From positions 4,064,001-4,128,000 of the forward strand of contig OZ242180.1 in NCBI GenBank assembly GCA_965205485.1: a DNA stretch of 64,000 nucleotides. Reading direction: 5' to 3'. Within the stretch, counting starts at the first letter, position 1. Each line of letters opens with the position of its first letter. This document shows positions 30,001 through 48,000 of this stretch, piece by piece. Position numbers: made by a program. The DNA comes from Candidatus Latescibacterota bacterium. GTDB lineage: Bacteria; Latescibacterota; UBA2968; GCA-2709665.

Positions 30001-33000
30001 ATAGACTGAACTTGACAGCCGGGATTCCCTGACAATGGCGCTGCAGGAGATCACATTTGCGGATCTGGTGGATGTAGCGGTCGTCGGTGTCCTGTTCTGG
30101 GGCCTGCTGGCCTGGACGCGGAGGATGCACGCGCGAATGTCCCTTATCGGGCTGGGGTTTCTGGGCGCATTCTATCTTCTGGCGCGGCAGTTCGAGTTGC
30201 AGCTGACGGCGTGGATATTCCAGGGTTTTTTCGCGGTGCTGGTTGTGCTGCTTGTCGTTGTGTTTCAGGACGACCTGAGGCGGCTCTTCGAACAGATTGC
30301 CGCACTGGGCCTGGGCAGACGGATATCGCGGCCCCGCGGAGGCAGTCTGGCGGTGCTGGTTCGTGCGATGCATCAGGTGGCGGCGAAGCGGCGGGGCGCC
30401 CTCGTGGTCCTGCCCGGGCGGGAGCCGCTGGACAGGCTCCTGCAGGGCGGGATAGACCTCCAGGCGACCATCAGTGAGGAACTGATCGACAGCCTGTTCG
30501 GCACGTCGTCGGCGGGCCACGACGGGGCCCTGGTGATGAGGGAAGACAGACTGGAACGATTCGCCGTATATCTGCCGCTTTCGGAAAATCGGGCCGAACT
30601 CGGGCCGGGAGGTACCCGCCATGCCGCCGCGCTCGGGCTGGCCGAGCGCAGCGATGCCCTGTGTCTGGTTGTTTCCGAGGAGCGCGGCACCATCGCCGTG
30701 GCGCTTCAGGGGCGACTGGAGGTTGTCAACGACCCTGACGAACTGCTTGCCAGATTGCAGGAACACGCGCAGCACGTGGTCGCCGGCGGACGGAAGAACG
30801 GACGGAGCCGGCTGGTCCGGCGACTTGCGGAAGGGTTGCTCTCATTCGTACTGGCGTTCGGCGCATGGGTGTTCCTGGTGCCCGGCGCGGCGGTCCAGGA
30901 AACGACTTACGAAGTGGCCGTCGGCGTGGAGAATCTGCCGGGCGGCTACGCGCTGAAGGGTGTCATGCCCCCCGTTGTGAACGTGACCGTGAAGGGCCCG
31001 CGTCGCGCCGTGTTGCTGGCGCCCTCGGACGACTTCCAGCTCGTAATCGATGCCAACTACGTGAGGATCGGACGCAGGACCTTCGAGTTCGGCATCGAGT
31101 CGATCAGGCACGGGACGGAGCTGACCGTCGTAAACGTGGAGCCCCGCAAGGTCCGGCTGGATGTACGGAAGGAATAGGTCTGGCAACCACCCCTACGAAG
31201 ATACCAGCCGCTCCCTGGATTCCATCTTGCGAAGGCCGGCATAGAGCAGCAGACCCGACAGCAGCGCCACCGCCAGGCGATTCAGCAACACCCGGTCGCC
31301 CCACAACGTGTCTTCCATGCCCACCGGTGGATCGAAACTTTCCAGAAAGAGCACGAACGGTGAGTCGGGCATTGACTGCGAGGCTACCAGCGTCAGGCCC
31401 ATCACGCCCGTGGCGAGCATGGCGGCCGCGTTTCCGCTTCGACAGAGAACGGAAAAGTAAAACGTGAGCCCCGCGGCGAAGCACGCCGGCAGAAAGGCGT
31501 TCAACCCGCCCCGGAGGATCGGCAGTTCCGCGAAGAAATAGTAGGCGACAACCGTCATACCCATAAGCGTTCCCGCAAGCACCAGATAGACGCCCACCAT
31601 TCGAATCGTCCAGATCCGGTAGTGCGACGAGGTTGTGCTGAACAACGTCTCCAGTGTATTCCTGTCACGTTCGCCCGCGACGAGATCCATCGTCAGATAG
31701 ATGGCCAGTGCGATGCCGGGAATCTCAACCAGAACATGGAGCGCCTTCGATACGCCGAATCCTTCGTCGGGACGCCACACCGCGAATGCGTACATGGCGG
31801 CGTAATAGACCAGGATGCCCATGGCCATGAATATCAGCTTCCTGTGAAAGATGATCCTGCAGCTCAGCCGGTAGAGCCGCCACGTGGTCAACAGCAGTTC
31901 CCGCCAGTTCAGCACGGCTGACCCTCCCCTCCGCCAAGCAGGTAAAGATACGCGTCTTCCAGGGTTGGATCCACGCGCTGCGCGCCGATGCCGGCCGGCG
32001 CGTGCTCCGACAGGAAACGCGTCCGGACGCCGCCGGAGGTTCGCTGGTGCGATATGAGCTTCAGTTGCTTTTCCATTTCGGAAAAGCGCCGGTCGGGAAC
32101 CACCGCGTCCCACACCCGGCCCGCCGCCAGGTTTCTCATCTCCGCCGGCGTTCCCGTATACAGTAGACGCCCCTGGTCCAGAACCGCCAGCCGATTGCAG
32201 CTTCCCGAGATATCTTCCACGATATGCGTGGAAAAAATCACAATGCGCTCCTGACTTAACCTGGCGAGCAGGTTGCGAAACCGGATGCGCTCCAGCGGAT
32301 CCAGCCCCGCGGTGGGCTCGTCCACGACGACGATCAGCGGGGCGTGCAGGAGCGTCTGCGCGATGCCGAGGCGCTGTTTCATTCCGCCTGAAAAAGAACC
32401 GATCGGATCGTCCCTTCGTTCGATCAGATTGACCTGCTCCAGAGATTCGATCACCCGGGTCTCGCGGGTCTTCCGGTCCTTGAAGCCCTCGAGCAGCGCT
32501 CTGTACTCCAGAAATTCGAATGCCGAAAGGTGTCCGTAGTTGCCGAAGTGCTGCGGCAGGTACCCGATCAGTCCGTGGATCGTACCCTTGTTCAGGATGT
32601 TTCTACCGTCGATCAGGATGGACCCGTAGCTGGGTTCGAGCACCCTGCAGAGAATACGCATCAACGTTGTCTTGCCGGCGCCGTTCGGACCCAGCAGACC
32701 GAACATCCCCCTGCCGATTTCCAGGTTGACGCCCGCCAGCGCTCGAAATTCCGGCCGGGGAATGCCTATAAGTGGAACGGCCGACGCCAATCGATAAAAC
32801 CACCGTCGCGGCCGCGCAAAACGTCCTGGCAGGTTATCGGGACTGATCTCGCCCGTCCGCACCCTGTCGGCGAGCCGGCGTAACAGGCGATAGACGGCCC
32901 AGATCCCGAACGAGGCAAGTGTGACCGATAGCAGGTCCAGCCGCCAGTGTACGTAGGCGACAAATGCCAGCGGGAGAGCGGCTTTGTGCAGCAGTTTGAC

Positions 33001-45000: not shown

Positions 45001-48000
45001 GCATTCAACACCGCCAGATCATCGCAGGTACTTGAAATATCGCCCACGATGTGTGTCGAAATCAGGATGGCCCGGTCTCGACTCAATTGGGCAAGGATTC
45101 CCCTGAAACGAATGCGTTCTTCCGGATCGAGTCCCACGGTGGGCTCATCCACAACCAGGATTTCCGGATCGCCCACAATGGCCTGTGCAATCCCGAGGCG
45201 CCGCATCATCCCCCCGGAAAATGTGCCGGTCCGGCGGTCCCGCACGTCGTAGAGCCCCACGTTCTCCAGCGCATCGCGCACGCGCCCTTTTCTGCCGTTC
45301 CGTCGCCGTCCGGCCGCCAGCCGGTCCATATAGTCCAGAAACTCCCACGCCGTCAGCTGTGGATACGAACCGAAGTGCTGGGGAAGATATCCCAGACTGC
45401 GACGAACTTCGGAGCGATTCCGCTGCAGGTCCCACGCTCCCACGCTTACATGGCCGGACGTTGGCGCCATCTGAGTTGAGAGAATCTTGATGAGCGTGGT
45501 TTTTCCCGCGCCGTTCGGTCCAAGCAGCCCGAAGGTCCCCTTGCCGATCTCGAGGTCCACGTTGTCCAGAGCGGGCACGGTCCCCTTTGGATAGATTTTC
45601 GTCAATCCGGTCGCAACGATACGCATTGCCAGCCCCTTGGAAGTTGTTTTAAAATTACCGGCGAGTTCCCGAGCGCGAGCGAAAAAGTGGCGGTCAAGGG
45701 GGAAAATCCGCCCAATTTTAATGTATCGTGGCTGCGCGCCCCTCGCCACTCTTGGGTGGATTTGACCAACGCCGACCGGCGCTTTTGCAGCCGTGCGAAG
45801 ACCGCTGGCAATTTTCAAACAGCCCCTTATCCGTGTTCCGGGGGAAAACCGTACACTGTGCATTAGACCGGTCAGCGGCGAAGATCGTTCCGCAAGGATT
45901 CGCTGGGGATGCGTGGGGAACCGCCCATTTGCGGCCGATGCATTCAGGGGTTGTCCGATTCCGTTGACGAGACGCGACCCACGCGCCGTCCGGCTGTCAG
46001 TTCCACCTTGACGTGGCGCGCATCCAGCTCGGGCATTGCGGGGCACGGCAACACGTGCACCGTTTCCTTCGGCACCGCCTGAGAGACGATTTCCGGGAAC
46101 GCCGCGGCGGTTTCCGGCGAACTGACATAGGCAAACGCCAGACAGATTTCTCTCCGTGTAAGTGACAGCCGTTCCAGGACGGTTGCCAGCTGTTCCGCAA
46201 CCAGTTCCGCCTCCCGGCGCGGGTCCGTGCCGCCGGGCGCCCGCAGCTCGCCCACCTGGATCAATTCCCAGCCCTGGGCGCGGCAGCGGCGAATCCTCAA
46301 GGCGCCGTCATCCGGGATTTCCGAAGGAATCCGCGTCTCCGAGTGCCGCACCTCGTTATCGTTGTCGGGCAGGACTCCCATGACCTGTATTTCCGCGTAC
46401 AGGCGGGGCGGATCGCCGAAACACCGGCTGTCCGACATCATCACCACGGGTCGCGGACGACCTGACCAGCGCCGGTTGACTTCCTTACGGATGAGGCGCG
46501 CGATCCTCGTACAGTGGGCGAACGGACGGAGACGCACGACGTCGCTCAACGAGCCGCCCCCCTCCTCGAAAACGTCCTGGATGAGGTCGAACACGTGCCG
46601 GATCTGGCGTTCCGGTTGTCCTTCGAACAGCGGATTGATGCCGTCGTCCCATGCCACTACGCCCGACAGATGGATCTGGCGGGCGCCGCCGAAGCGCGTC
46701 ACGACCGCGGGGGCAAGCGCCATGAATTCGGTATCGTACAATGACTCCGGACGCCAGATGGCCTGCTGGAACGCCGCGCCGGGTCTTGGCACATAACCCA
46801 CTGCCTGGATACACGTGGAGAGGCGGGTCCTCGAATGCGCCCAGCCAAGCGTCGTGATCGCGGCGCGATACCCGCGGCTGAACCGGGCCCGCCGTTCACC
46901 GCGCATGTGGGTGCCGTCGTACCGCTTGTTGTGCAGAACCGTCCATTCGGCGAAGGAATCAAAACCCCCGCCAGACACGGTGGCGACCTCCGTCATCGTG
47001 TCGCAGAGCGCCACATTCTGGGATTCGGACCATTCGTCGCGCAATGCCTCGCCCGCTGCCTCCGACCATGTTGAGCCCTGGACGCCGTGGTCGGGCAGCT
47101 GCAAACCCAGTTGATTGAGATCGATACGCACGGCGTCGCCCCAATCCGTGTGCCGGACCCGCATGTGTCGCCGTACGTCCGGGTGAGACATCAGTGAACT
47201 CTCCTTGTGCCGGCACCCTTCGTGCGCAGCCGGAAAGACCGTGAACCGACGGGATCGGTGAAGGCTCAACTCCAGGGGAACGGACTGTTGGATACCGGAT
47301 GGAGCCTTCCCTCGGCATAGCGGGAAAAGCGGAACGGCGCCAGCAGACGCGTGGACTCGCCGAGGAGTTCCTCGGCCACCAGCCCGCCCACGCCGATCAT
47401 CTTGTATCCGTGATTCGAGTCCGCAATGAAGTAGCAGTTCTGGTGAAACCGGTCGAATACCGGGAAACTGTCGGGTGTAAACGCGCCGATGCCTCCGGAC
47501 GGCTCTTTCTTGAAGAGCGATGACTTTCCTTCAAACCGCTTGTGACAGAATGCCAGTGCGGAACACCACTGGTGTGCGAACCGGTCTCCGACGATGAAAT
47601 CGGGGGACTCCGGACCATAGGGATCCACCGCCACCTCGTCCGGCGGTCGTTCCACCCTGTAAGGCATCGCCCCCCCTTGTACACCCCCGAAGTGGAAATC
47701 GGGCTTGTAATAAATGCCCCACAAACGATCGGTAATCAGCGAACCGTCGACGTCCGAATACAGCGGCGCATCGGTGTCGAGATGAATCACAGGGGGCATG
47801 CTGCCGTCGTTGGTCTTGAGATAGTTGGGGTCGACGCCCAGCGTACCTTCCTGCAAACACCAGTAACTCCACATCGGGATATCGTGGTGCATCGTCCCGT
47901 CCGGACTCTTTATGCTCACCGACGCGGGCAGACCCAGCATATCCCAAAGCAGCTTCGCCCAAGGGCCCGCTGCGATAACGACCTCGTCCGTCCGGATCAC

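What a model noticed while it worked through the whole genome (the two positions that open the first line are those of the whole stretch)
31193..47191. RND efflux permease covalently fused to an ABC ATPase (RND::NBD chimera) in a conserved 7-gene locus
g03291 (C1:4095909-4100621, minus; 1,570 aa) is a complete 12-TM RND (AcrB/MdtC-like) permease (res 1-1027) continued in one reading frame by two extra hydrophobic helices and a DrrA/GldA (ABC-2 type) ATP-binding cassette whose first beta-strand is separated from the Walker A by a ~170-aa four-helix hydrophobic insertion. It sits in a fixed array: free ABC ATPase g03295 - ABC-2 permease/M1-like g03294 - adaptor g03293 - plain RND g03292 - RND::NBD g03291 - small 6-TM ABC-2-like permease g03290. 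The fused NBD is predicted to dock g03290. I propose a hybrid pump in which an ATP-driven ABC-2 module (fused NBD + g03290) is physically tethered to a PMF-driven heteromeric RND pump.
Evidence so far: Call 21: Pfam ACR_tran 5-1027 (E 3e-185) and ABC_tran 1297-1438 (E 2e-26) on one ORF. Call 25: the 120 best of 4,557 hits to the C-terminal 541 aa are mostly ~1,550-1,620 aa and carry both PF00873 and PF00005 (38-86% id); sources name Latescibacterota, Gemmatimonadota, Acidobacteriota, KSB1, Calditrichota. Call 28: Walker A GPNGAGKTT, signature SGGMKQR, Walker B VVDEPTAGLD, H-loop STH invariant in 34 sequences. Call 36: 93 of 161 Latescibacterota genomes match at E<=1e-40; about 80 have a full-length match without stops inside an open frame of ~1,575-1,600 aa. 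Call 32: AF2 of the C-terminal 541 aa, pLDDT 83.5; helices 2-32, 35-67, strand 75-85, helices 115-226, NBD 263-533. Call 35: best PDB [...]
(Added by a program. Inside this text positions count along the whole contig: contig position 4,064,001 is position 1 of the stretch shown here. "Call 12" and the like, gene names such as g00115 and contig names such as C1 are that model's own, and its searches are not shown. The text may have been shortened before it was handed on; [...] marks where a part breaks off. The agent that wrote the report below was given it as the finding of a first reader that could run no searches.)

Follow-up and report, generated by a model that had tools for sequence, protein, structure and literature searches.

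The report
ATP motor fused to efflux pump
A proton-driven efflux pump protein is joined in one chain to an ATP-burning motor, apparently tying two kinds of transporter into one machine whose sensing subunit exists in up to dozens of swappable versions in some gut bacteria.

Summary
The fusion is real: one 1,570-aa ORF joins an AcrB-family RND permease to an intact ABC ATPase. It recurs in 82 of 168 genomes of the phylum and in cultured Bacteroidota. Corrections: this window has six genes; the seventh, a TolC, is missing here. The ABC part is probably one heteromer, not fused NBD plus g03290 alone. g03290 and g03294 match the first and second halves of the single-chain ABC-2/M1-aminopeptidase permease, and the fused and free ATPases are sister clades. 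g03294's peptidase site is lost. New: g03294 has up to 39 scattered paralogues per genome in Butyricimonas relatives, while the fused ATPase and g03290 stay single. That suggests a shared RND-tethered motor with exchangeable receptor subunits. The four-helix insert sits at the Wzt gate-helix site. Complex prediction gave weak support only (0.44 vs 0.00). Cargo, direction and coupling are inferred. Ten literature searches found no description.

The parts
31909..36621 (-). g03291, RND::NBD fusion, 1,570 aa
33541..36609 (-). RND permease part (res 5-1027); TM4 D400/N401/E407, TM10 N939/D946, TM11 R972/T977
33334..33531 (-). two extra hydrophobic helices (res ~1031-1096) linking RND to NBD
33280..33312 (-). 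detached first beta-strand of the NBD ending in the A-loop Tyr1114 (res ~1104-1114)
32749..33279 (-). insert (res ~1115-1291): basic amphipathic helix plus four hydrophobic helices, at the site of the Wzt gate helix; no PDB sequence match
31936..32748 (-). NBD core and C-terminal domain (res ~1292-1562), all catalytic motifs intact
31193..31915 (-). g03290, 240-aa ABC-2-type TMD; start overlaps the fusion's stop; equivalent to TMD1 of ABC-2/M1 permeases; single-copy
36618..39701 (-). g03292, plain RND permease, 1,027 aa; stop overlaps the fusion's start
40199..41281 (-). g03293, periplasmic adaptor (RND_mfp above cut-off), 360 aa
41326..44724 (-). g03294, 1,132 aa: one ABC-2 TMD + M1-aminopeptidase-fold ectodomain without HExxH + golvesin C-terminal domain; equivalent to TMD2+M1 of ABC-2/M1 permeases
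44721..45626 (-). g03295, free ABC ATPase, 301 aa, intact motifs, sister clade of the fused NBD (45% identical)
39715..39928 (.). MITE-like repeat with 21-nt terminal inverted repeats inside the array (not part of the system)

Best explanation
The array encodes one hybrid envelope machine with two motors. SHOWN by sequence and models: a two-RND pump with adaptor (and, in most lineages, its own TolC); an intact ATPase fused to one RND; a second intact free ATPase; two different ABC-2 (type V-like) TMDs that correspond to the two halves of the widespread single-chain ABC-2/M1-aminopeptidase permease; a periplasmic M1 fold that has lost its zinc site. INFERRED: these assemble as ONE heterotetrameric ABC, with a fixed half (RND-fused NBD + g03290) and an exchangeable half (free NBD + g03294 or one of its paralogues). 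One fused subunit per RND trimer would then be enough, as in an MdtB2C-type trimer. The four-helix insert, at the gate-helix position, anchors the NBD and holds the ABC's lateral gate next to the RND. The dead M1 domain is a binding pocket that selects cargo, most likely peptides or lipopeptides at the membrane. ATP turnover extracts or flips the cargo and hands it to the proton-driven RND, which expels it through TolC. Lineages with tens of g03294 paralogues swap receptors on one shared motor, like group II ECF transporters do with S-components.
For: Fusion conserved: 119 of the best 120 hits carry both PF00873 and PF00005, 108 of 120 are at least 1,480 aa; single origin, support 99. Split-permease match: g03290 profile to TMD1 of 95 ABC-2/M1 proteins Prob 92.4, E 5e-7, against TMD2 Prob 8.9, E 0.004; g03294 to TMD2+M1 Prob 99.9 over 793 columns. 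Of 7 plasmid loci inspected with the closest outside ATPases, 5 have a two-TMD single chain and 1 a split pair like this one. Fused and free ATPases are sister clades (99) with the same deep split. Co-inheritance: 77 of 168 genomes hold fusion and g03294, 82 neither, 9 discordant are 58-90% complete; 2 of 300 sampled Bacteroidota hold both g03294 and g03290, 298 neither. The free ATPase is kept when it leaves the locus (G081, G084, G091, G187, G205). Copy number: g03294-type 39, 34, 21, 19, 15, 15, 10, 8 in eight genomes, while g03290 is single in 49 of 49, the fusion single and the cognate free ATPase single (two in G220). HExxH in 95 of 95 ABC-2/M1 proteins, 0 of 150 g03294-family representatives. 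Complex prediction, partner g03290: weak support, 0.44 against best control 0.00; runs agree in at least 94% of contacts, partner pLDDT at least 69; the mark was reached by 116 of 157 solved complexes and 2 of 215 mismatches, but at 0.60 or under by only 18 solved ones and both mismatches.
Against: No experiment, no expression data, no cargo. g03294's TMD also matches TMD1 well (Prob 97.0 vs 98.4 for TMD2), and single-sequence HMM scores did not tell TMD1 from TMD2 (medians 34.5 vs 34.6; g03290 negative for both). Direct g03290-g03294 profile similarity is faint (Prob 2.9). Extra ATPase + g03294 pairs, and ATPase + two tandem g03294 paralogues, occur away from any RND (L082, L083, L086, L087, L088), which fits self-sufficient ABCs, though those genomes also hold the fusion. 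Both NBDs keep consensus sites, so there is no asymmetry to prove heterodimers. One locus (L024) has the NBD split from the RND, so the tether may be dispensable. The window's lineage lacks the cognate TolC (best own-genome match E 6e-12). Three orphan loci in G169 lie near unrelated Gld-type ATPases that could in principle serve them. The complex score may come from likeness to solved NBD-TMD pairs.
Confidence: 0.5

Rival explanations
1. Two separate homodimeric ABCs: fused NBD pair + g03290 pair tethered to the RND, and free ATPase pair + g03294 pair working beside it. The orphan permeases would then share only the free ATPase.
For: The complex signal for g03290 needed the fused NBD. ATPase + g03294 modules occur on their own. 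Gene order reads as two NBD-TMD cassettes.
Against: The two TMDs map to the two halves of one ancestral chain; close outside ATPases mostly serve two different TMDs; no well-assembled genome was found with only one of the two modules; it needs two fused subunits brought together.
Confidence: 0.2
2. The ABC moves no cargo. It is a mechanical or sensing unit: ligand binding to the dead M1 domain drives ATP-dependent motion that switches the tethered RND on or off, or strips a ligand from its membrane target, like NosDFY or BceAB-type systems (mechanisms recalled).
For: NosF is among the best structural matches (7osf, 7o0y); the large ectodomain is catalytically dead; the ectodomain is most variable in its helical part among 43 orphans (22% vs 30-40% elsewhere); a covalent tether suits direct control.
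Against: The insert lies at the gate-helix site used for substrate entry in Wzm-Wzt; NBD fold matches do not discriminate function; no regulator gene is conserved in 80 loci.
Confidence: 0.15
3. A two-step secretion route for small folded proteins: Sec-exported single beta-sandwich proteins are recognised in the periplasm by a dedicated g03294 paralogue and passed to RND-TolC.
For: 26 of 72 genes next to orphan paralogues encode 95-200-aa proteins with a signal-peptide-like start, against 16 of 164 other genes in the same loci (Fisher p 4e-6; loci not independent); several are fn3, I-set Ig (titin-like), ML or CarboxypepD_reg domains.
Against: Main loci, the window included, have no such gene; 16 of 39 orphan clusters lack one; some lie on the opposite strand; the heuristic has false positives; a folded 100-aa domain is large for an RND (recalled). 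They may be accessory binders instead of cargo.
Confidence: 0.1
4. A neutral read-through fusion of neighbouring genes in an operon of two unrelated transporters.
For: One natural split at the linker (L024).
Against: One origin, kept across several phyla at 33-36% identity; 66 of 68 fully seen loci intact; the six added helices are conserved; only 6 hits among shorter proteins, 4 on contigs under 5 kb.
Confidence: 0.05

Closest known systems
MdtABC-TolC / MuxABC-OpmB (two-RND pumps)
   Same: Two RND genes and one adaptor in an operon; MdtB is the best PDB sequence match (9lyq, E 8e-84); MdtB2C1 stoichiometry stated in PMC7015380 (passages).
   Different: No ATPase fusion or ABC partners; here TM4 has D-N and TM10 N where AcrB has D-D and K (AcrB residues recalled).
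ABC transporter permease/M1 family aminopeptidase (~1,195 aa) with its ATPase
   Same: Closest outside ATPases (41-46%) sit beside it; both TMDs and the M1 fold are homologous.
   Different: There one chain has both TMDs and an intact HExxH; here the chain is split, the zinc site is lost, a golvesin domain is added, the ATPase is duplicated and one copy is fused to an RND. I found no functional study of that family.
Wzm-Wzt / TarGH (type V ABC with gate helix)
   Same: Insert right after the A-loop Tyr, as described for the gate helix in PMC13018209 (passages).
   Different: Their gate helix is about 23 residues (A18-S40 deleted in that paper); this insert is about 177 residues with four hydrophobic helices, with no sequence match in PDB.
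Group II ECF transporters
   Same: One ATP module shared by many scattered, exchangeable specificity subunits (PMC10368641, passages).
   Different: Unrelated folds; ECFs import vitamins; exchange here is inferred from copy numbers only.
MacAB-TolC and type I secretion (ABC-driven tripartite pumps)
   Same: ABC ATPase, adaptor and TolC in one system.
   Different: They have no RND; PMC8277102 section 5.6 (part 1 read) lists only type IV and VII ABCs in tripartite assemblies.
GldAFG, NosDFY, LanFEG
   Same: DrrA/GldA-type NBD, ABC-2 TMDs, large periplasmic partner or two different TMDs (subunit layouts recalled).
   Different: Below NCBIfam cut-offs; none is tied to an RND.

Membership tests
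RND permease (AcrB/AcrD/AcrF) | Full-length ACR_tran domain with 12-TM repeat | tested here: met
   PF00873 res 5-1027 over profile 3-1019, 616 bits vs cut-off 28
RND permease (AcrB/AcrD/AcrF) | Proton-relay residues | tested here: inconclusive
   D400, E407, R972, T977 invariant in 109 of 109; second Asp and TM10 Lys are Asn; the same pattern is in 5 other RNDs of this genome. AcrB numbering recalled.
RND permease (AcrB/AcrD/AcrF) | PMF-driven export with adaptor and TolC | not testable with these tools
   Adaptor adjacent; TolC in 45 of 57 loci, absent here; 8 other TolC-family genes in the genome
MdtB/MdtC orthologues | NCBIfam equivalog cut-off | tested here: not met
   331-399 bits vs 1584 and 1774
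ABC ATPase (NBD) | Walker A, Q-loop, signature, Walker B Glu, D-loop, H-loop, A-loop aromatic | tested here: met
ABC ATPase (NBD) | Complete fold despite the insert | tested here: met
   model only:
ABC ATPase (NBD) | ATP hydrolysis | not testable with these tools
   needs assay
DrrA / GldA equivalogs | NCBIfam cut-off | tested here: not met
   167 vs 312 and 158 vs 403 bits
ABC-2 (type V) TMD, g03290 | Profile homology to ABC-2 permeases | tested here: met
   Prob 92.4 to TMD1; PF12679 E 1.5e-5 in 2 of 7 homologues scanned, below cut-off; atlas neighbours ABC-2
ABC-2 (type V) TMD, g03290 | Type V fold by structure comparison | not tested
M1 aminopeptidase, g03294 | M1 fold | tested here: met
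   IRAP/ERAP matches E 1e-18, TM-score about 0.4 by target
M1 aminopeptidase, g03294 | HExxH zinc site | tested here: not met
   0 of 58, 0 of 150 after residue 500; 1 of 43 orphans has the letters, position not checked
Xanthan lyase (automatic database name) | Lyase catalytic domain | tested here: inconclusive
   only Golvesin_C matches; no lyase among listed fold matches
Group II ECF | EcfT and S-component folds | tested here: inconclusive
   no ECF membrane family in Pfam scans; analogy only
Anti-phage defence systems | PADLOC system composition | tested here: not met
   only generic ATPase hits; none for g03294 or g03290

The most novel reading that the evidence does not exclude
A new class of two-motor envelope machine: an ATP-driven type V ABC physically built onto a proton-driven RND-TolC pump, in which one RND-anchored motor is shared by a repertoire of up to about 40 exchangeable pseudo-peptidase receptor subunits, each possibly working with its own small secreted Ig-fold protein, giving gut Butyricimonas relatives a diversified peptide-recognition and export repertoire.
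Probability: 0.35. Interest if true: 0.92.

Novelty: categorically new. Interest (0 to 1): 0.8.

Why it matters
Efflux machines are classed by one energy source: RND uses protons, ABC uses ATP. Cooperation between inner-membrane exporters and RND pumps is usually pictured as passing cargo through the periplasm (recalled). A conserved covalent RND-ATPase joint would make that hand-over a single structure that can be purified and solved. It occurs in cultured strains (Prolixibacter, Draconibacterium, Mariniphaga, Gaoshiqia, Butyricimonas). The copy-number pattern also points to subunit exchange outside ECF transporters, gives a handle on the unstudied ABC-2/M1 family, and reinterprets a large gut-bacterial gene family that databases call 'xanthan lyase'.

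Tried and rejected
Assembly or frameshift artefact: rejected; intact in 66 of 80 loci including a complete chromosome (L057); 12 were cut by contig ends, 1 has an internal deletion (L071), 1 is split (L024). Dead ATPase: rejected. ATP replacing the proton motive force: no support; the relay pattern equals that of stand-alone RNDs. TMD-TMD pairing in the complex job: with the fused NBD replaced, g03290 plus the g03294 TMD scored 0.00; no support, which is no evidence against; no interface was given. Insert against PDB by sequence: 0 hits; it was not folded alone, so its fold is untested. Expression: no RNA holder listed; contigs of two runs cover all 30 bins, no listed piece spans the stretch. 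Promoter/terminator scan: at chance level. Conserved cargo or regulator genes around 80 main loci: none beyond TolC; upstream flanks were mostly not covered. Plasmids: 0 of 111 matching records cover 80% of the C-terminal query. Earlier findings were not available. A second fold search of g03294 was not obtained. Literature: 10 searches, open-access only, listings read; no title or abstract start describes an RND-ABC fusion or this locus. Supplements were not examined, TCDB could not be searched, and only the first 300,000 of 747,818 characters of PMC8277102 are held. JGI's automatic name already lists both domains, so the fusion is visible in databases.

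
Full report
Observation. Window 31909-36621 (-) is a single 1,570-aa ORF. It holds ACR_tran at 5-1027 and ABC_tran at 1297-1438. All NBD motifs are intact in 109 of 109 full-length sequences, the window's included. The model of residues 1030-1570 (pLDDT 84.4) shows two linker helices, the first NBD strand, an amphipathic helix, four hydrophobic helices and the NBD. Solved NBDs align from model residue 70-75, so the early strand belongs to the fold. Averaged hydropathy and charge keep this layout in 15 close and 52 distant sequences, with basic flanks on the expected cytoplasmic side; that the six helices cross the membrane is inference. PMC13018209 (passages) places the Wzt gate helix right after the A-loop tyrosine; our insert starts after Tyr1114 (108 of 109). 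The position is shared; no sequence likeness was found.

Distribution. Of the best 120 of 4,308 hits, 119 carry both Pfam domains and 108 are at least 1,480 aa. In the phylum, 88 of 168 genomes match and 82 match along most of the C-terminal 540 aa; 74 of the 82 lie in open frames of 1,460 aa or more, the other 8 were not inspected. 66 have the intact fusion, 12 are cut by contig ends, one lacks about 210 aa of the RND, one is split just before the first strand. A search among shorter proteins gave 6 hits. The system is rare in Bacteroidota overall: 2 of 300 sampled. It is common in the family of G169 (GTDB Marinifilaceae, name recalled): g03290 in 49 of 61.

Gene order. ATPase, g03294, TolC, adaptor, RND, fusion, g03290. 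g03290 follows the fusion in 77 of 80 loci; the other 3 end at a contig edge. A ~495-aa outer-membrane efflux protein lies between g03294 and the adaptor in 45 of 57 comparable loci. The 12 without it are the window's closer relatives; more distant members of the phylum have it (L097-L100). So the window holds six genes. Its genome has 8 other TolC-family genes, none a close orthologue.

The RND. Both RNDs keep the TM4 Asp and Glu and TM11 Arg and Thr; the second Asp and the TM10 Lys of AcrB (recalled) are Asn. Five other RNDs of the same genome share this pattern. There is thus no sign that ATP replaced protons. Two RND genes suggest a heterotrimer as in MdtB2C1 (PMC7015380, passages); the ratio here is unknown.

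The ABC. The closest paralogue of the fused NBD is the array's own free ATPase (45%). In a quick 75-row tree (the careful search did not finish), fused (support 99) and free (95, including one truncated free copy labelled 'other') are sisters (99) and share the same deep split. The nearest outside ATPases on plasmids (41-46%) mostly sit beside permeases with two TMDs in one chain: 5 of 7 loci inspected, two of them ABC-2/M1 aminopeptidases with HExxH; one is a split pair, one unclear. Against 95 such ABC-2/M1 proteins, g03290 matches TMD1 (Prob 92.4) far better than TMD2 (8.9); g03294 matches TMD2+M1 over 793 columns (99.9). Its TMD alone prefers TMD2 only slightly (98.4 vs 97.0), and single-sequence scores did not discriminate. 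I read g03290 and g03294 as the halves of one split permease. g03294's ectodomain has the M1 fold (pLDDT 82.0; IRAP/ERAP E 1e-18) without HExxH: 0 of 150 representatives against 95 of 95 in the unsplit family. Fusion and g03294 co-occur in 77 of 168 genomes, neither in 82; the 9 discordant ones are 58-90% complete in 150-500 contigs. Kin are not independent. The free ATPase is retained after moving elsewhere in five genomes.

Complex prediction. Chains: insert-NBD, g03294 TMD, g03290 as partner. Verdict weak support: 0.44, best of three controls 0.00; contacts agree at least 94%, partner pLDDT at least 69. The mark was reached by 116 of 157 solved complexes and 2 of 215 mismatches, but at 0.60 or under by only 18 solved ones and both mismatches.

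Unexpected: paralogue expansion. B. synergistica has 21 g03294-type genes but one free ATPase, one fusion and one g03290. Among 61 family genomes 52 have g03294; eight have 8 to 39 copies (39 is a lower bound, 40 of 52 candidates scored), g03290 is single in 49 of 49, and the 9 without g03294 lack g03290 and the fusion. In the five richest others the fusion is single and the cognate ATPase single or double. The 20 long copies fetched from G169 are 24-63% identical and none of the orphans has a cognate ATPase beside it. I fetched all G169 copies and 26 of 34 for G205. The coupling region and M1 N-terminal domain stay conserved, the helical part diverges most. 23 of 39 orphan clusters have a small signal-peptide-like neighbour: 26 of 72 adjacent genes against 16 of 164 others (a heuristic with false positives), often fn3, titin-like I-set, ML or CarboxypepD_reg domains. 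Against a strict reading: some extra copies in Latescibacterota come with their own ATPase, twice as tandem pairs.

Mechanism. Most likely (0.5): one four-part ABC, half of it fixed to an RND subunit, half exchangeable. The dead M1 pocket selects a membrane-associated peptide-like cargo, ATP extracts or flips it, and the RND expels it through TolC. Parts and co-inheritance are shown; assembly, cargo, direction and coupling are inferred. Rivals: two separate homodimeric ABCs (0.2); a sensing or mechanical ABC that controls the RND (0.15); secretion of the small Ig proteins (0.1); neutral fusion (0.05).

Comparison and novelty. It works like a two-RND pump joined to an ABC-2/M1-type transporter, with subunit sharing like group II ECFs (PMC10368641, passages). 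It is not a member of the MdtBC, DrrA or GldA equivalogs, not an active M1 peptidase, and not a defence system. PMC8277102 (passages and part 1 of section 5.6) names only type IV and VII ABCs in tripartite pumps. PMC4338810 was seen as one passage and added nothing. Ten open-access searches (listings only) found no description; subscription papers, TCDB and supplements were not seen. JGI's automatic label names both domains. Every part belongs to a known family, but I found no known system that joins an ABC motor to an RND. Verdict: real, conserved, new in architecture, testable in cultured strains; interest 0.8.

Noticed in passing
window 39715-39928 and about 45640-45823: MITE-like repeat of about 215 bp with 21-nt terminal inverted repeats; about 100-110 genome copies overlap each; one copy sits between adaptor and RND, a related one (81% identical) upstream of the ATPase.
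   Followed up: partly
L024:5507-5723: Natural split of the fusion just before the first NBD strand, with a 215-bp spacer holding a palindromic-looking repeat.
   Followed up: partly
L071:9995-14092: Fusion lacking about 210 aa of the second RND half but keeping insert and NBD; deletion or assembly error.
   Followed up: partly
L119:10201-10611, L105:11035-11409, L115:6559-6939, L130, L133, L135, L138, L139: Signal-peptide proteins made of one titin-like I-set or fn3 domain in gut Bacteroidales (best PDB match titin, E 7e-26).
   Followed up: partly
L139:6165-6650, L125:5945-6292, L126:5587-5880: Short genes carrying only the ends of a g03294-type gene, one fused to an Ig domain; look like deletion remnants of duplicated copies.
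   Followed up: no
L082 and L083: Extra ATPase + g03294 pair inside a cluster with a radical SAM protein and glycosyltransferases; a possible cargo clue.
   Followed up: partly
L102:5241-19903: Two orphan g03294 paralogues lie between two other adaptor-RND-TolC operons in B. synergistica.
   Followed up: no
L013, L014: In two Acidobacteriota the ATPase-g03294 pair is inverted and divergent from the adaptor.
   Followed up: no
L006:3453-4811, L007:15297-16781: A different, distant TolC-like gene follows g03290 in two loci that lack the usual one.
   Followed up: no
window 45944-53617: Upstream cluster: RidA-like, FAD oxidoreductase, TPP enzyme, homocysteine methyltransferase-like and dimethylformamidase-beta-like genes; not conserved with the array.
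   Followed up: no
window 30035-31177 (+): CdaA-like diadenylate cyclase convergent with g03290; adjacent only in the four closest loci.
   Followed up: no
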